A stretch of DNA of 64,000 bases from Nitrospirota bacterium (GTDB lineage: Bacteria; Nitrospirota; Thermodesulfovibrionia; UBA6902), in the NCBI GenBank assembly GCA_003354025.1, contig PIVU01000002.1, forward strand, positions 8,004 through 72,003, given 5' to 3'. Positions 16,806 to 45,355 of this stretch are shown one piece after another; the first letter of the stretch is position 1, and every line of letters begins with the position of its first letter. Both the position numbers and the translations under genes were made by a program. The notes beneath the pieces are model-generated. The model saw only the letters and a list, made by a program, of their open reading frames with translations, was not told the DNA's origin and searched no databases.

Positions 16806-17522
16806 TTATTTAGTCAAGCGCACTAACTCTTCCTCAGCCCTTATTCTTTGCCTGCTCTCCAGCGGCTCCAGCTGAATTACTTGCTTGAAAGCTTTTCTTG
16901 CCTCTTCGAGTTGACCACTGTCAGTATAGGCGTAACCCTGGTTCAGATGAAGTGTCGGGTTATAAGGGATGCCGTCAATAAGTTGTTTGTATAAATTAAT
17001 AGCCTTCACATGTTCTCCCGCTGAATTATAGGCAACACCAAGATCATTTGCAGCCTGCACGAAACCTGCCTCATTGGCGACGACATACTCGAGGTGTGCT
17101 ATGGCTGAAGTAAAATCACCCAAATGTAAATGGGCGAGTCCAATATAATAATGAGCTTTTGTTGATTCCGGTTCTCTTTGGAGGACAAAGTTGTAACATT
17201 CAATCGCCTTATCGATTTCTTCGATAAAGTAGTAAGACAATCCTAATTTCAGATAATCTTCATTACTTTCAGGCTCAAGTGATGTAGCTTGCCGAAAGGA
17301 CTCAACGGCTTCAGTCACCATTTTAAGTTCCTTGTAAATTAATCCCATGTTGAAATAAACTTGTTTATTGTCAGGGCTGCTTTCAAGTAGTTTTTTATAA
17401 ACATCCAGCGCTTCGCTTAACTTCCCTGTTTGCTGATAGTTAATAGCTAAATCAAAAAGAGTTTTTCTATCGCTTCTTAAATTAGTTCTCTTTTCGTTAT
17501 TTATCTTTTCTTGACTTTCCAC
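16806..17522 (-). CDS. TPR-repeat protein translationally coupled to the DUF4157 effector (candidate chaperone/immunity)
   Basis: 238 aa of TPR units. Its start overlaps the stop of the upstream effector gene at 17522. Confidence 0.6.
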   Translation of the reverse strand: MESQEKINNEKRTNLRSDRKTLFDLAINYQQTGKLSEALDVYKKLLESSPDNKQVYFNMGLIYKELKMVTEAVESFRQATSLEPESNEDYLKLGLSYYFIEEIDKAIECYNFVLQREPESTKAHYYIGLAHLHLGDFTSAIAHLEYVVANEAGFVQAANDLGVAYNSAGEHVKAINLYKQLIDGIPYNPTLHLNQGYAYTDSGQLEEARKAFKQVIQLEPLESRQRIRAEEELVRLTK

Positions 17523-20500
17523 TATCCGACCCTAATCTTTTTATTTTTCACTAAATCTTTAATTTTTTGTTTGCTGTCATCAAATTTTTTGTATAATCTA
17601 CTGTAGTTCCTTTTAGGATCTTTGGAATGATTTTTTATCCGGTTTATCATGTTAGCAACGCTTCTATACGGTTCATTCCCTCCTTTAGAAACAACCTTCA
17701 TTATTTTCGTCATCGTCCTGGTAAATATCTCTCCTCCTTCTACAGCTGACAAGGCCGTGTATGATGCAATACTCAACGACGGCAATTTACCCTTATCAGG
17801 CTTTCTGATAGGCACATTTTCCTTAAAGCGGGCTTTAGTATCTTTTTCCCACTTTTTCCCTTTCGGGAAGTATAGTCCTGCCGTAAACTCAACTGTAGAT
17901 GGGAAATCTTTCAACTTATAAGTTGAAGCATCTGGCGCATGAGTATCTAACACTTCACCTTTTACCCATATAACAGAGGGAGAATCTTTACCATTAGCAC
18001 CCTTACTGCCTTTGTATAGCAGCCTCTTCAGTGGTGCTTCAAATTGACTAAGTACCTGAGTTCCCGTATTAACACTGTTAGGAGCCGGAACCCAGTTTTC
18101 CTTCACTCCTTTCCCTCCAAGCTCTTCACTGACGAGATGCATTCTCACCCACTTATCTATTCCAGCTCCACTAGTTAGCCCATGAGCACGGAGCTGATCG
18201 AACTCCTTAGTACTTCCTGAGGGTTTTGTGCCGACGGTAGAATTTTCAGTTGTTATGGTATCTAATTTTGAATATTTACCCACACCACTCCTATCATCGC
18301 TATATTTCAGCTTTGCTTTCGGGGGAAGCGGTAAGCTAAGGTTTGAGGCAAGAGTTTTTAGTGCTATGCTCAATTTATTAAGGTCGTCTTCTACATTCTT
18401 ACTACGCTCTTGGTCACTAGTTCCGCCAACATCTGCGAGGGTTTTCGATGCTAATCTTTTGGCCTCTTCCATGGCATTGTATCTAGGATCGCTCTTCACA
18501 ATTTTTAAGTCGGCCAGATATATCCTCAGTGGTCCTTTGCTGTTGCTGGCCATTAGCAATTTAGCTGTCTTTCCCTCACCGCTAATTGATAAAACATGCT
18601 CCTCACCTGCGTTATTTACAAATTTTTTCTCTCCAAATTTCATTTTGCTTTTTGCCAGCGTCAATATCTGTTCAACAGGACTCATTGCTCCAAAAACTGT
18701 CCATTTTTGTTTATCCTTTGGACTTTCCTTGGCATACAATTGATTAAATCCATATTCTTTTCTTTTCATAATCTTCTTCAGAATCCCATTAAGCTCCTTT
18801 TGGTCAATACCTGTCTTCTCAGCATAGCTAAGTGTCTGCTTTACAACTTTCACCCCTCTCTGCCATTTGTCTTGTTTATCCTTTTTAGTGTCTGCCTTTC
18901 CAGTTTTTCCCTCTTTCCCCTTCCCTTTCATGGGGCTCTTAAGGTCAGGTTTACCTTCCTTCTGCCGTGCTTCTTTCTGGTACTCTTTAACAGTTTTTCC
19001 ATTAGCAGTTCGTGAGTTGGGATTAGCAGGTTTTACATCTTTTTTCCCTACTGCAGGTTTGACTTTTGACTTCGCCGCTGGTAATGCTTCCGCTTTACCT
19101 AATTTTGCATTACCGGTTTTAGCCTCCTTGGAAGGAGGAGCATCTTTGGTATTTTTCTCTTTCCAGGTTCCTGGTTTATCAGCCTTTTTGGATGTTGGTT
19201 GTGCCTTATCTGCATATAAATCAGTCAGGAATTTGCTAGAATCAAACTCCACTGGTTTGAGTTCAACAGCAGGAGCTTTACCAGAACCAAAGACATAGTC
19301 AATGTTTGCATTGAGACCAAAACTGCCACCGATTGGCCATTCCTTGCCGCCTAGCGGCCACGTCCATTTTTTGTCAGGTACAGGCGACCACCAGGGTGCG
19401 TCAACTTCAACAAACAAATCACCACTTAGTCCTAAAAATGGCTGGGCAGCAATTTCCAGATCACCACGAATATAGAACTCTCCTTTTTTATCCTCGGCAG
19501 TTGGTGCCGGTTTCTCTCTGTAACCGATAACCGGCGTAGCTTCAGCATATCCACGAATCCCTGCCAGGCCGTTTATACCGGCTCCGGCTTTAATGTCATG
19601 CGCCAGTATTTCAAGACCCGCGCCGGCTTCCCCGCGCAAACGCAAACCAGCAGCAGCAGATATATTAAACGAGCCTTTTATGCTGAAATCCTTTGCTTTC
19701 TTCGGATCATTGGAATAAGTGCCGTCAATGGATATTTTGTAAAACTTACCGGGTCCGATCTTAGCAAACGCATCGGCTCCAATATTGGCAAAAATAAATA
19801 TATTCCCAACCACTGGAATGCCGTAGCTTGCTCGAGCTTCTACTTTGAAAAGCTTTTTGACATAGTCTTTCTGGGGAAACAGTTCGAAATCTTTGGGCGT
19901 GATTTTACCGATAACAGTCAAGAAACCTTTTTGATCAATAATGACTTGCGCTTTGCCTCCAAGCCAATCACTGAACGTAACATCAAGCTCCCCTTCGCCG
20001 AATAAAACATAATCGGGTTTTGCTTTTGATTTGCCCTTGGATGCCGACTTTTGAACTACTTCTTTTTCAGGAGCTTTTTTCTGCTGCTCCAACTGCTCAG
20101 CTTTATCGCGCTCCATTACTTTCAGGGTGACTTTGCCTGAAAATTTATCTCCTGCATACCCAACGGAACCTTCACCGGAAAGGTTACCATCATCCCAAAC
20201 CACAATGACGTTTCCGTTAATATTTTTTGTTAACTGAACTGCGGCATCAACTTTGCCTTTGGTCTTTCCTTCCGGTGTTCTATCAAGCTCCATGTTAACT
20301 GTTGCCAGTTTAGGAACATCAACGGACAGATTGCCGCTAAAGGAAGTTATTTTTTCTTCATTTGCACCAAGACTGAATGTGCCATTTAAAATCCGACCCA
20401 ATGCAAGAGGGACATCTGACAGACCCAACTCTAAACTCCCATCCTTTATTTCATTTGTTATTTTTGGAAATTTTGAAACACCAAACCCCTGGAGACCAAT

Positions 20501-44764: not shown

Positions 44765-44855
44765 TATAATCCCTCCTTATCTTTAACTGTTATTTGATTA
44801 TCATATGAGGTCCTGATTATTTCTCAATCAGCAATCTATATAAAACGCTTGGAAG

Positions 44856-45355
44856 TCAAGCCTTAACGAGTACTCCCTTTTCAATCTCAATGCTCGCCTG
44901 ATATGCGATTGTATTAAGCAGTATCATCACCCTGTCACGGGCCTTCAATTCCTGATGGAATACGCCTAACAATCCTTTAAAGGGTCCCTCGTGGACCAGG
45001 ACCTTATCACCCTTATGCAATTCAGGAGCATCTATAAGGACATATCCATTTTCAATTCTTGACTGTATACTGCTAATAATGCTTTCATCTACAGTAAATG
45101 GATTACCCGTCATGTCCCCGACGATCTTTCTTACTCCCCTTGTATACCTAATCATGTGAGCATGTTTTACAGGATTAAAGCATAAAAAAATATAGCACGG
45201 AAAGAGCTCTTCCACCACTTCCTGCATTTTCCCTCTGATATATTTTTTTCTTTTCACTTGAGGATTAAACACGACAATATCGGGCACATTGATAAGTCTT
45301 TGCGCAACATGGTCTTCAATCCCCGGCTTTGTAAATATGCAGTACCAATTCTTCA
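44856..45355 (-). CDS. NusG-family specialized transcription antiterminator (UpxY/LoaP/TaA-like) heading the CIS operon
   Basis: NGN start KNWYCIFTKPGIE. KOW motif GDKVLVHEGPFKGLLG. ~165 aa. It is 90 nt upstream of the sheath gene on the same strand. Confidence 0.75.

What the first reader, a model, noticed from the sequence alone, without database searches (positions are those of the whole stretch)
16806..45355. Complete extracellular contractile injection system (eCIS-like) locus, ~28.5 kb, one transcription direction
A contiguous minus-strand block encodes sheath (796 aa), tube, DUF4255 cap, AAA+ ATPase, tube-like protein, LysM tail-X, gpD-like hub, gpV spike, gp25, baseplate J, a 1341-aa baseplate protein, a gpI-like protein and a 1357-aa fibre-like beta-helix protein. 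It ends with a DUF4157 effector whose stop overlaps the start of a TPR protein gene. Most junctions are 1-4 nt stop/start overlaps (translational coupling). No capsid, portal, terminase or integrase is present, so it is not a prophage. No TssB/C split sheath, TssM/J/K/L or ClpV is present, so it is not a T6SS. The AAA+ ATPase, DUF4255 cap and DUF4157 cargo are the hallmarks that distinguish eCIS from R-type tailocins. The locus sits in a higher-GC island in an AT-rich, sigma-54-rich host, a lineage where such systems are essentially uncharacterised.
Basis: partly seen in the sequence, partly recalled or inferred. Interest (0 to 1): 0.9.

Follow-up and report, generated by a model that had tools for sequence, protein, structure and literature searches.

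The report
Phage-tail-like toxin injection gene cluster
This is a real gene cluster for a phage-tail-like contractile injection machine that carries a DNA-cutting toxin; it belongs to a widespread known family, and whether it works outside the cell is not settled.

Summary
A minus-strand block (16806-45356) encodes sheath, tube, DUF4255 cap, AAA+ ATPase, tube initiator, LysM protein, split gpD/gpV spike, gp25, gp6/gp7-like wedge proteins, a gpI-like protein, a DUF6519 protein and a DUF4157 protein coupled to a TPR gene. The 64-kb window has no head, portal, terminase, integrase or canonical T6SS genes.

New here:
- The DUF6519 protein ends in a right-handed β-helix like polysaccharide-active enzymes and phage depolymerases.
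- An exact σ54 promoter with an adjacent enhancer-binding protein heads the operon. This arrangement recurs in related loci.
An ops-like GGCGGTAG lies in its leader.
- The island probably extends to about 13.1 kb (M6 peptidase).

Caveats:
- Loci with the same gene order are common across many phyla (sheath up to 79% identical), so this is a new member of a known kind.
- The closest solved sheaths come from systems that are not extracellular: the haloarchaeal T6SS-like CIS and the cytoplasmic Streptomyces CIS. "Extracellular" is therefore inferred.
- No clear tape measure or PAAR protein was found, so "complete" is unproven.

The parts
46125..47543 (-). σ54 enhancer-binding protein (472 aa) with a degenerate N-terminal receiver-like domain; probable activator of the operon
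   Evidence: Sigma54_activat E 5.8e-67. Weak Response_reg match in the N-terminus, E 0.007. Homologous EBPs sit directly upstream of the sheath operon in L003, L005, L037, L057, L065, L074, L078, L079, L081 and L082.
45880..45895 (-). σ54 (-24/-12) promoter TGGCATTCTTATTGCT
   Evidence: Only exact match to TGGCAYN5TTGCW in the window, against 0.28 expected. The same strict motif lies upstream of the sheath operon in L005, L055, L065, L081 and L082. That is 5 hits in 106 kb of upstream sequence against 1 in 2.54 Mb elsewhere.
45549..45848 (-). Small conserved protein (about 99 aa counted from the second ATG); function unknown, with a weak winged-helix-like signal
   Evidence: 36% identical to the small ORF at the same position in L082 and L083. 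tblastn hits next to EBPs in L037, L053, L055, L057, L065, L074 and L079. Only sub-threshold MarR/GntR/TrmB hints.
45406..45413 (-). ops-like core GGCGGTAG on the sense strand of the leader, followed by a weak GC hairpin and T-run (45391-45404)
   Evidence: The hairpin is not better than shuffled sequence. The published ops consensus is GGCGGTAGNNT, found upstream of PVC/Afp operons (PMC6748792).
44856..45356 (-). Specialised NusG paralog, RfaH-like (166 aa from ATG 45356); probable operon-specific antiterminator
   Evidence: PF02357 NusG E 2.9e-14. Best NCBIfam model is RfaH (96.9 bits), ahead of UpxY 69.9, LoaP 59 and NusG 42; all are below their cutoffs. Absent from all related loci examined.
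42374..44764 (-). Sheath (Cis2-like, 796 aa, single sheath gene with a large variable middle insert)
   Evidence: Pfam; PDB hits; 436 homologues.
41852..42361 (-). Inner tube (Cis1-like, 169 aa)
   Evidence: Phage_T4_gp19 E 2.5e-39.
41003..41839 (-). 278-aa conserved protein of the PF12322 'T4_baseplate' / PHROG 'baseplate hub' families, with two CxxC pairs
   Evidence: Conserved after the tube gene in nearly all related loci, including Streptomyces.
39783..41006 (-). 407-aa Ser/Pro/Thr-rich, poorly conserved protein; by position only, a candidate tape-measure or assembly protein
   Evidence: No family hit. 26-54% identity in only a few relatives. Composition.
38668..39786 (-). Cap / tail terminator (Pvc16_N = DUF4255, 372 aa)
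   Evidence: E 2.7e-21.
37340..38671 (-). AAA+ ATPase (WHD plus a single AAA domain, 443 aa; Cis15-like)
37123..37392 (-). Small conserved protein (76-89 aa), function unknown
   Evidence: 56-74% identical in L081 and L082, where 76 aa are called.
36449..37126 (-). Tube-like baseplate/initiator protein (CIS_tube, 225 aa)
   Evidence: PF19266 E 2.7e-7.
36108..36416 (-). LysM / tail-X-like small protein (102 aa)
   Evidence: Phage_tail_X E 2.4e-4, just below the cutoff. Conserved in relatives.
34990..36111 (-). gp27/gpD-like hub: the N-terminal half of a split VgrG (373 aa)
   Evidence: Aligns with residues 15-342 of AlgoCIS 7aef_q, 9rce_F (VgrG) and the tCIS protein All3320. VgrG_rel E 3.8e-6.
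34166..34987 (-). gp5/gpV-like spike (273 aa)
   Evidence: Phage_base_V E 1.5e-24.
33757..34161 (-). gp25-like baseplate wedge protein
   Evidence: GPW_gp25 E 1.1e-12.
32592..33824 (-). Baseplate wedge protein (about 390-410 aa)
   Evidence: TIGR02243 E 1.5e-17. PHROG baseplate wedge.
28570..32595 (-). Large baseplate protein (1341 aa) with a C-terminal Baseplate_J domain (Cis11-like)
   Evidence: Hit to the Streptomyces CIS baseplate chain 9gtp_1K, E 2e-9.
26330..28573 (-). gpI-like baseplate protein (747 aa)
   Evidence: Tail_P2_I E 1.1e-5. R-pyocin PA0619, E 0.003.
22257..26330 (-). DUF6519 protein (1357 aa): conserved N-terminus, variable remainder, C-terminal right-handed β-helix; candidate tailspike or receptor-binding protein
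   Evidence: N-terminal residues 1-375 are conserved and the rest is variable. PF13229 in 2 of 8 homologues. AF2 model with pLDDT 86 and pTM 0.83. Foldseek hits to GH110, RbmB lyase, GH87, AlgE4 and phage depolymerases.
22100..22145 (-). Terminator-like hairpin flanked by A- and U-tracts, between the DUF6519 and DUF4157 genes; a σ70-like promoter lies at 22232-22260
   Evidence: Hairpin -25.1 kcal/mol, z -2.47. Promoter matches 11 of 12 positions with an extended TG. Sequence.
17522..21847 (-). Cargo toxin (1441 aa): acidic, repeat-containing N-terminus, DUF4157/eCIS_core HExxH domain (216-289), long linker, C-terminal ββα-Me non-specific nuclease (about 1200-1360)
16806..17522 (-). TPR protein (238 aa) whose start overlaps the toxin stop by 1 nt; candidate chaperone/adaptor or nuclease inhibitor
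   Evidence: A coupled TPR gene also follows the DUF4157 gene in L088, whose toxin has a different C-terminus.
15642..16647 (-). Two small membrane proteins (228 aa with 1 TM; 113 aa with 2 TM), AT-rich, not conserved in relatives; membership uncertain
13155..15446 (-).
   Evidence: GC 0.535, like the structural genes. A full-length homologue (36% identical) follows the DUF4157-TPR pair in L088.

Best explanation
The block is a chromosomal contractile injection system (CIS) operon of the eCIS superfamily in a Nitrospirota genome. The phylum is inferred from one housekeeping protein.

**Particle (inferred from family membership).** It builds a headless phage-tail-like particle with these parts:
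- a single-protein sheath around a gp19-type tube;
- a DUF4255 cap;
- a baseplate of gp25-, gp6/gp7- and gpI-like proteins around a split gpD+gpV spike;
- an AAA+ ATPase that assists assembly or cargo loading.

**Cargo (shown by fold and family).** The cargo is the 1441-aa DUF4157 protein, whose C-terminus is a ββα-Me non-specific nuclease. The coupled TPR protein is its chaperone or inhibitor (inferred). The M6 peptidase downstream is probably further cargo (inferred from one related locus).

**Targeting (inferred).** The DUF6519 protein is anchored by its conserved N-terminus. It presents a variable part ending in a β-helix that binds or cleaves a surface polysaccharide. This favours action on other cells, probably bacteria, after release.

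**Expression.** The adjacent enhancer-binding protein acts on an exact σ54 promoter. The motif, its position and its conservation are shown; activity is inferred. An operon-encoded RfaH-like NusG paralog, recruited at an ops-like site, carries RNA polymerase through the roughly 28-kb operon and its internal terminator-like hairpin (inferred).
For: - Every core family was confirmed.
- The gene order sheath-tube-PF12322-x-DUF4255-AAA-x-tube2-LysM-hub-spike-gp25-wedge-J-I-DUF6519-DUF4157 is conserved in dozens of loci from many phyla.
- DUF4157, DUF4255 and AAA are among the core domains of eCIS loci listed in PMC8213781.
- The window has no head or integration genes.
- β-helix.
- The N-termini of the DUF6519 and DUF4157 proteins are conserved and their C-termini vary, as expected for a receptor binder and for polymorphic toxins.
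- Related loci carry DUF4157 proteins with weak, sub-cutoff hints of peptidoglycan-directed domains (Tse3_N, LysM).
- σ54 promoter.
- RfaH-like gene and ops core. The precedent is AnfA1 and ops at Afp/PVC.
Against: - The closest structurally characterised sheaths belong to systems that are not released: the haloarchaeal T6SS-like CIS and the cytoplasmic Streptomyces CIS.
- No recognisable tape measure, PAAR protein or contiguous holin-endolysin release cassette was found.
- The toxin's own Pfam nuclease hit is sub-threshold (E 0.02), and Foldseek found nothing significant.
- The ops-like site lacks the T at position 11. The 8-mer occurs 3 times in the window against 0.85 expected.
- The NusG paralog scores below the RfaH cutoff and is absent from every related locus.
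- The two leader hairpins are no better than shuffled sequence.
- The TPR role is ambiguous: it accompanies a different toxin in L088 and is missing in L084 and L086.
Confidence: 0.6

Rival explanations
1. Same machine, different mode of action. The particles stay inside the producer. Either they are free in the cytoplasm and fire under stress to cause regulated cell death, as in Streptomyces CIS, or they are anchored to the inner membrane and fire outwards on contact, as in the haloarchaeal T6SS-like CIS and T6SS subtype iv.
For: - The sheath is most similar to 9EZM (E 2e-82) and 8BKY/8BL4 (2e-81, 1e-78). These scores are 30-40 orders of magnitude better than those for Pvc, Afp, tCIS or AlgoCIS sheaths.
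- The only PDB hit for the large baseplate protein is the Streptomyces CIS chain 9gtp_1K.
- As in S. coelicolor, there is no PAAR protein and no typical tape measure.
- No clear lysis cassette is present.
- Two small membrane proteins lie just downstream of the TPR gene.
Against: - None of the conserved structural proteins has a predicted transmembrane helix. The two membrane proteins are not conserved in related loci.
- A large protein with a variable distal part and a polysaccharide-enzyme-like β-helix sits at the fibre position. The Streptomyces clusters lack a conventional fibre.
- DUF4157 polymorphic toxins, with weak hints of peptidoglycan-directed domains in relatives, point to targets outside the producer.
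Confidence: 0.27
2. A defective prophage tail module or an R-type tailocin that kills by membrane depolarisation and delivers no cargo.
For: P2-like gene set and order (X, D, V, W, J, I), with sheath and tube. The gpI-like protein resembles R-pyocin PA0619.
Against: - The locus has a DUF4255 cap, an AAA+ ATPase and a DUF4157 toxin, which are eCIS core domains.
- R-pyocin sheath similarity is weak (E 1e-8, against 1e-82 for CIS sheaths).
- There are no head, portal, terminase or integrase genes and no flanking tRNA in the 64 kb.
- The same headless arrangement is conserved in many phyla.
Confidence: 0.03
3. The RfaH-like gene and the GGCGGTAG site are coincidental neighbours. The NusG paralog regulates something else, and the 8-mer is a chance match.
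For: - The paralog is absent from all related CIS loci examined.
- Its GC is host-like (0.405).
- The 8-mer occurs three times in the window.
- The protein scores below the RfaH model cutoff.
Against: - The gene sits between the σ54 promoter and the sheath gene on the same strand, so it is co-transcribed by position.
- By my own base-composition estimate, an exact sense-strand ops core in a 177-nt leader is expected about 0.001 times.
- Linked RfaH-like regulators and ops sites are documented for Afp and PVC.
Confidence: 0.3

Closest known systems
eCIS superfamily as defined by gene content (dbeCIS / eCIStem; Afp, PVC, AlgoCIS as studied members)
   Same: - Headless sheath-tube-baseplate-spike set with a DUF4255 cap, an AAA+ ATPase and DUF4157.
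- Toxin at the 3' end, built as an N-terminal DUF4157 domain, a long linker and a C-terminal toxin, as described in PMC8213781.
- A fibre-position gene after the baseplate genes.
- RfaH-type control has precedent in AnfA1 and ops.
   Different: - Gene order starts with sheath-tube, and cap and ATPase sit in the middle.
- There is a single 796-aa sheath protein rather than the several sheath proteins of Pvc2-4 and Afp2-4 (chains listed).
- The spike is split into gpD-like and gpV-like genes.
- The ATPase has one AAA domain.
- No PAAR protein or recognisable tape measure was found.
- Sheath sequence similarity to Pvc, Afp and AlgoCIS is much lower than to clade IIa/IId systems.
- Control by σ54 and an EBP is not mentioned in the eCIS papers read.
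Haloarchaeal T6SS-like CIS (Halogeometricum borinquense, clade IIa; PDB 9EZM)
   Same: Best sheath match in the PDB (E 2e-82). Single sheath protein with a variable surface domain. The cluster is associated with toxins.
   Different: - That system is bound to the cytoplasmic membrane, and its mode correlates with a six-TM putative anchor, Hbor_38620. No TM protein is conserved here.
- The host here is a diderm bacterium.
- This locus has a DUF4157 nuclease toxin and a β-helix protein.
Streptomyces cytoplasmic CIS (CIS-Sc, clade IId; PDB 8BKY, 9GTP)
   Same: - Second-best sheath match.
- Only PDB match for the large Baseplate_J protein.
- A PF12322-like gene follows the tube gene in Streptomyces loci too.
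- No PAAR protein (as in S. coelicolor) and no typical tape measure.
   Different: - Streptomyces clusters lack a conventional fibre and use the membrane protein CisA/Sco4242. Here a 1357-aa β-helix protein occupies that position and has no TM segment.
- Regulation differs: σ54 and a NusG paralog here.
RfaH/ops and AnfA1 control of PVC and Afp operons
   Same: An RfaH-like NusG paralog is encoded at the head of the injection-system operon. A GGCGGTAG core lies on the sense strand of the leader.
   Different: - The protein is below the RfaH model cutoff.
- Position 11 of ops is C, not T.
- The host is Nitrospirota, not Enterobacterales.
- The paralog is combined with a σ54 promoter and is not found in sister loci.
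ββα-Me non-specific nucleases used as secreted toxins (Spd1, Sda1, EndA, NucA, T7SS EsaD)
   Different: Here the nuclease is the C-terminal module of a 1441-aa DUF4157 protein. Sequence identity is 10-16%. No homologue of a known inhibitor was identified; the neighbour is a TPR protein.

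Membership tests
eCIS superfamily (gene-content definition) | Contractile sheath and gp19-type tube genes | tested here: met
   PF04984/PF17482 and PF06841.
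eCIS superfamily (gene-content definition) | Baseplate (gp25, Baseplate_J) and spike (gp5/gp27-like) | tested here: met
eCIS superfamily (gene-content definition) | DUF4255 (Afp16/Pvc16) cap and AAA+ ATPase (Afp15/Pvc15) | tested here: met
   Pvc16_N E 2.7e-21; AAA E 6e-26.
eCIS superfamily (gene-content definition) | DUF4157 / eCIS_core domain protein associated with a toxin at the 3' end | tested here: met
   PF13699 E 5.8e-22. C-terminal nuclease.
eCIS superfamily (gene-content definition) | No capsid, portal, terminase or replication genes | tested here: met
   None among the ORFs of at least 150 aa in the 64-kb window. About 9 kb of the 73-kb contig was not seen.
eCIS superfamily (gene-content definition) | Tape measure (Afp14) and PAAR tip (Afp10) | tested here: inconclusive
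   No family hit. The 407-aa variable protein is a positional candidate only. Both are also missing in some accepted members.
eCIS superfamily (functional definition) | Particles released from the producer and acting on other cells | not testable with these tools
   Needs EM of supernatants and killing assays. The closest solved relatives are not released.
Canonical T6SS (subtypes i-iii) | Split TssB/TssC sheath, TssJLM membrane complex, TssK, ClpV | tested here: not met
   The sheath is a single protein. No such Pfam or NCBIfam hit in the window, apart from ClpV at E 0.004 as generic AAA similarity.
Membrane-anchored or cytoplasmic class II CIS (haloarchaeal clade IIa, Streptomyces clade IId) | Sheath sequence closest to these clades | tested here: met
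   9EZM 2e-82 and 8BKY 2e-81, against Pvc2 7e-53. No phylogeny was made.
Membrane-anchored or cytoplasmic class II CIS (haloarchaeal clade IIa, Streptomyces clade IId) | Conserved membrane adaptor (Hbor_38620-like six-TM protein, or CisA/Sco4242-like single-TM protein) | tested here: inconclusive
   A hydropathy scan found no TM helix in the conserved proteins. The two TM proteins downstream are not conserved. No direct sequence comparison with Hbor_38620 or CisA was possible.
R-type tailocin | Tail genes only, with a lysis cassette and no cargo, cap-ATPase pair or DUF4157 | tested here: not met
   Cargo, DUF4255, AAA and DUF4157 are present. Pyocin sheath E 1e-8 only.
RfaH/ops antitermination module | NusG-fold protein matching the RfaH family | tested here: inconclusive
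   RfaH is the best model (96.9 bits) but the cutoff is 144.5.
RfaH/ops antitermination module | ops element GGCGGTAGNNT on the non-template strand of the leader | tested here: inconclusive
   The GGCGGTAG core is exact at 45406-45413 on the sense strand, but position 11 is C.
σ54-dependent operon | -24 GG / -12 GC promoter with correct spacing and a cognate EBP nearby | tested here: met
   TGGCATTCTTATTGCT is the only exact match in the window. The EBP gene is adjacent. The motif is about 120-fold enriched upstream of related sheath operons. rpoN itself is not in the window.
ββα-Me DNA/RNA non-specific endonuclease (PF13930/PF01223) | Family profile match and catalytic His/Asn/Glu | tested here: met

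The most novel reading that the evidence does not exclude
This locus may represent a widespread but unstudied bacterial CIS lineage. The lineage would be defined by a sheath nearest to clades IIa/IId, a PF12322 protein, a split spike, a DUF6519 β-helix protein and a σ54 promoter with an EBP. Its mode of action may differ from classical released eCIS: membrane-anchored, or cytoplasmic with stress-triggered firing. In this genome it has additionally acquired a dedicated RfaH-like antiterminator that acts at an ops-like site far outside the Enterobacterales.
Probability: 0.2. Interest if true: 0.6.

Novelty: new member of a known kind. Interest (0 to 1): 0.4.

Why it matters
- It adds a well-annotated CIS from Nitrospirota with an identified cargo (a nuclease) and a candidate glycan-binding targeting protein.
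- It shows that gene content alone cannot justify the label 'extracellular' for this branch of the family.
- The σ54/EBP promoter conserved across phyla gives a concrete handle for inducing these otherwise silent operons. Homologous loci exist in cultured strains, including Nitrosomonas marina Nm22, Syntrophus buswellii DM-2, Ideonella oryzae and Aliiglaciecola sp..
- None of this changes current understanding of CIS biology.

Tried and rejected
- **Exact look-up of the window's sheath protein** found nothing, although the identical protein P0001 is in the collection on a 73-kb NCBI contig. The organism is therefore known only from one housekeeping protein, whose cluster at 90% identity holds Nitrospirota and 'Nitrospiraceae' MAG proteins.
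- **Word-index homologue search with the lysine-rich C-terminus of the toxin** found nothing. The exhaustive HMMER search then found 128 representatives.
- **PDB sequence searches** for the cap, the 278-aa, the 410-aa and the DUF6519 proteins found nothing useful.
- **The two hairpins in the leader** (after the ops-like site and after the NusG-like gene) fold no better than shuffled sequence. I do not claim them as terminators.
- **The TPR protein as a toxin-specific immunity protein** could not be supported. L088 has a coupled TPR gene with a different toxin C-terminus, and L084 and L086 have none.
- **The two small membrane proteins as an anchor or holin** found no support, because no homologues occur in related loci.
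- **PADLOC** gave only generic AAA and TPR similarity for locus proteins.
- **tRNA and Rfam scans** found no tRNA and no Rfam family, so no integration site was defined.
- **Searches of the paper library** for CIS with NusG, with σ54 or with Nitrospira-type hosts gave no directly relevant prior report.

Full report
**Observation**

The region 16806-45371 holds an unbroken series of minus-strand ORFs.
- sheath: PF04984/PF17482
- tube: PF06841, E 2.5e-39
- cap: Pvc16_N (= DUF4255), E 2.7e-21
- ATPase: AAA, E 6e-26, with an N-terminal winged-helix domain
- tube-like protein: CIS_tube
- a weak tail-X/LysM protein
- spike: Phage_base_V, E 1.5e-24
- gp25
- Baseplate_J at the C-terminus of the 1341-aa protein
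- Tail_P2_I in the 747-aa protein
- DUF6519 at the N-terminus of the 1357-aa protein
- eCIS_core (= DUF4157), E 5.8e-22, at residues 216-289 of the 1441-aa protein
- a TPR protein

Two proteins without Pfam hits were placed by other means:
- The 373-aa protein aligns with the N-terminal gp27-like part of the spike proteins (Cis8/VgrG) of AlgoCIS and of the Anabaena tCIS.
- The 410-aa protein matches TIGR02243 and PHROG baseplate-wedge families.

Of 18 junctions, 9 are 1-4 nt overlaps, 2 are longer overlaps and 5 are gaps of 2-32 nt. The large gaps are 91 nt before the sheath gene and 409 nt before the DUF4157 gene (coordinates).

The rest of the 64-kb window carries ordinary chromosomal genes:
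- on one side: pilB-pilT-pilC-pilS-pilR, ribonucleotide reductase and AdoHcy hydrolase;
- on the other: ComEC and molybdenum-cofactor genes.

It has no capsid, portal, terminase, integrase or T6SS membrane-complex gene. There is no tRNA and no Rfam match.

- The first gene inside its coordinates (44856-45356) is a specialised NusG paralog. PF02357 matches at E 2.9e-14. The best NCBIfam model is RfaH (96.9 bits), ahead of UpxY, LoaP and housekeeping NusG, and all are below their cutoffs.
- Three further conserved genes were not listed:
  - a 278-aa PF12322 / 'baseplate hub' protein with two CxxC pairs;
  - a 407-aa Ser/Pro-rich variable protein;
  - a roughly 76-89-aa protein.
- Upstream lie a σ54 enhancer-binding protein (46125-47543), a small conserved ORF (45549-45848) and the only exact σ54 promoter match in the window. 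That promoter is TGGCATTCTTATTGCT at 45880-45895, with 0.28 matches expected.

**Relatives**

The sheath has 436 homologues at E ≤ 1e-10 among the scored candidates. The listed ones are 54-79% identical over the full length.

A scan of one genome per species returned at least 588 related stretches. They come from Gammaproteobacteria, Desulfobacterota, Verrucomicrobiota, Nitrospinota, Nitrospirales, Acidobacteriota, Actinomycetota and cyanobacteria, and include cultured strains.

tblastn of all locus proteins against these loci shows that the gene order from sheath to the large baseplate protein is conserved. Metagenomic loci extend the conserved order to gpI-like, then DUF6519, then DUF4157.

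The locus is therefore a member of a large existing family. The host is probably a Nitrospirota bacterium. This rests on the AdoHcy hydrolase, whose cluster at 90% identity holds Nitrospirota and 'Nitrospiraceae' MAG proteins. The nearest sheaths in named genomes are not from that phylum, which suggests horizontal transfer.

GC gives modest support for an island. Structural genes average 0.49 and host genes 0.43. The regulators, the TPR gene and the DUF4157 gene have host-like GC.

**Cargo**

The C-terminal 372 residues of the DUF4157 protein gave only a sub-threshold Endonuclea_NS_2 hit (E 0.02). Four further results settle the assignment:
- An exhaustive HMMER search found 128 representatives. 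Most sit at the C-terminus of proteins of about 1000-1800 aa, and others are short stand-alone proteins.
- 24 of 37 aligned members match PF13930, best E 1.9e-9.
- The alignment has an invariant or near-invariant His, two Asn and a Glu within the motif WV.MHLI..LGG.G...NLVPAP.SVN.G....FE.

This matches the published architecture of an N-terminal DUF4157 domain, a long linker and a C-terminal toxin (PMC8213781). In relatives the first ~290 residues are conserved and the C-termini differ. Two in L084 show weak, sub-cutoff hints of Tse3_N and LysM domains. This is the pattern expected of polymorphic toxins, and it weakly suggests bacterial targets.

The TPR gene overlaps the toxin stop by 1 nt. 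L088 also has a coupled TPR gene, but with a different toxin C-terminus, and L084 and L086 have none. I therefore cannot decide between a chaperone/adaptor role and a nuclease-inhibitor role.

L088 also carries a full-length homologue of the M6/P-domain peptidase downstream of its TPR gene. That gene has the GC of the structural genes (0.535).

**Targeting protein**

In the DUF6519 protein, residues 1-375 are conserved among relatives and the remainder varies. For the last 478 residues:
- they have homologues, and 2 of 8 carry PF13229;
- they model confidently (pLDDT 86, pTM 0.83) as a right-handed β-helix;
- the model matches GH110 enzymes, the RbmB polysaccharide lyase, GH87 and AlgE4, and further down phage depolymerases and tailspikes.

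That it binds a target glycan is inference.

**Mode of action**

This is where the interpretation needs correcting. By sequence, the sheath is closest to these solved structures:

| PDB entry | System | E-value |
|---|---|---|
| 9EZM | Halogeometricum CIS | 2e-82 |
| 8BKY | Streptomyces CIS | 2e-81 |
| 8BL4 | Streptomyces CIS | 1e-78 |
| 6J0B | Pvc2 | 7e-53 |
| 6RAO | Afp3 | 6e-45 |
| 7B5H | Anabaena tCIS | 2e-42 |
| 7ADZ | AlgoCIS | 1e-41 |

The haloarchaeal system is bound to the cytoplasmic membrane and kills on contact. The Streptomyces system is cytoplasmic and mediates cell death.

Features that argue for action outside the cell:
- No conserved protein of this locus has a predicted TM helix, and the two small membrane proteins after the TPR gene are not conserved.
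- A large protein with a variable distal part and a β-helix sits at the fibre position. The Streptomyces clusters lack a conventional fibre.

Features that argue the other way:
- No contiguous lysis cassette is present.
- No PAAR protein and no clear tape measure were found.

My estimates are about 0.6 for release and extracellular action, and about 0.27 for a retained mode (cytoplasmic or membrane-anchored).

**Regulation**

The arrangement EBP, σ54 promoter, small ORF, sheath recurs in distant loci. Exact -24/-12 motifs occur in L005, L055, L065, L081 and L082.

Over 71 loci, the strict motif occurs 5 times in 106 kb of same-strand sequence within 1.5 kb upstream of the sheath gene. It occurs once in the remaining 2.54 Mb. 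σ54/EBP control is thus a conserved trait of part of this family. The eCIS papers I read name RfaH, GerE and BTAD regulators and not σ54.

The RfaH-like gene is peculiar to this locus. It is absent from all 80 genome loci, apart from an unlinked hit on the opposite strand in L030, and from the four closest metagenomic relatives.

An exact GGCGGTAG, the core of the ops element GGCGGTAGNNT, lies on the sense strand of the 177-nt leader just upstream of the gene. From base composition I estimate about 0.001 such matches by chance in that leader. Against this, the 8-mer occurs three times in the window, and position 11 is C rather than T.

Linked RfaH-like control has precedent in AnfA1 at Afp and in ops sites at PVC operons (PMC6748792).

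A strong hairpin with flanking A- and U-tracts (22100-22145, z -2.47) and a near-consensus σ70-like promoter (22232-22260) separate the structural genes from the toxin gene. Antitermination or a separate transcript would be needed to express the cargo. In L088 the two genes are directly coupled.

**Verdict**

- The finding is real and largely correctly read.
- It is a new member of a known kind, not a new kind.
- Added value:
  - the nuclease cargo;
  - the β-helix targeting protein;
  - the σ54/EBP module;
  - the RfaH-like gene;
  - the wider island.
- 'Extracellular' and 'complete' remain untested.

Noticed in passing
window 10607-12112 (-): A 501-aa metallo-β-lactamase-fold protein. Its best PADLOC matches are nuclease-type components of defence systems: LmuA E 4.5e-19, Avs1a E 1.4e-17 and the DRT-associated MBL E 2.8e-17. 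It may be a defence or toxin gene within the same island.
   Followed up: no
window 9833-10570 (-): A 245-aa protein with an N-terminal PG_binding_1 domain and a weak C-terminal CHAP match (E 0.004). A crude hydropathy scan found no N-terminal hydrophobic stretch. It could be a cell-wall hydrolase used for release or as cargo. The Nitrospirales locus L037 has a 35% identical hit.
   Followed up: partly
window 12164-13048 (-): A papain-family (C1) cysteine peptidase with no N-terminal hydrophobic stretch in the same crude scan. It lies between the M6 peptidase and the MBL protein and may be another effector.
   Followed up: no
window 47939-55260 (-): A type IV pilus cluster, pilB-pilT-pilC-pilS-pilR, lies directly upstream of the CIS regulators. 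No pilin-like N-terminal motif was found anywhere in the window. In Geobacter-type clusters pilA follows pilR (my own knowledge), so the island may have been inserted at or near that position.
   Followed up: partly
window 43500-44100 (-), sheath residues about 225-420: By eye, the variable middle of the sheath contains two similar modules of about 80-100 aa (LTLNINGLG...LAIQDLS and LALNIDDHL...LAIQKAVQALD). Self-BLAST did not report them. The middle of the DUF6519 protein gave a very weak Flagellin_IN hit.
   Followed up: no
window 41003-41839 (-): The PF12322-like 278-aa protein has two CxxC pairs (CGHC and CPEC), which suggests a zinc ribbon. It is conserved directly after the tube gene across the family, including Streptomyces loci. 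No solved structure matched it, so its role in CIS appears undescribed.
   Followed up: partly
L081 9504-9752 and L082 9680-9976: The small ORF between the σ54 promoter and the sheath gene belongs to different families in sister loci. It is DUF3467 in L081, and a homologue of the window's small protein in L082 and L083. In the window and in L082 the longest-ORF start overlaps the promoter, so the true start is the next ATG.
   Followed up: partly
L084 15745-20921: This related locus carries two shorter DUF4157 proteins in tandem (547 and 516 aa), with weak Tse3_N and LysM hints, followed by a DDE transposase. This suggests cargo turnover at the 3' end.
   Followed up: no
L030 4225-4677 (-): A Pseudomonas fluorescens CIS locus of the same family has an RfaH/NusG-like gene, 34% identical to the window's paralog, about 5 kb upstream of its sheath gene on the opposite strand. 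I did not check whether it is the housekeeping rfaH.
   Followed up: no
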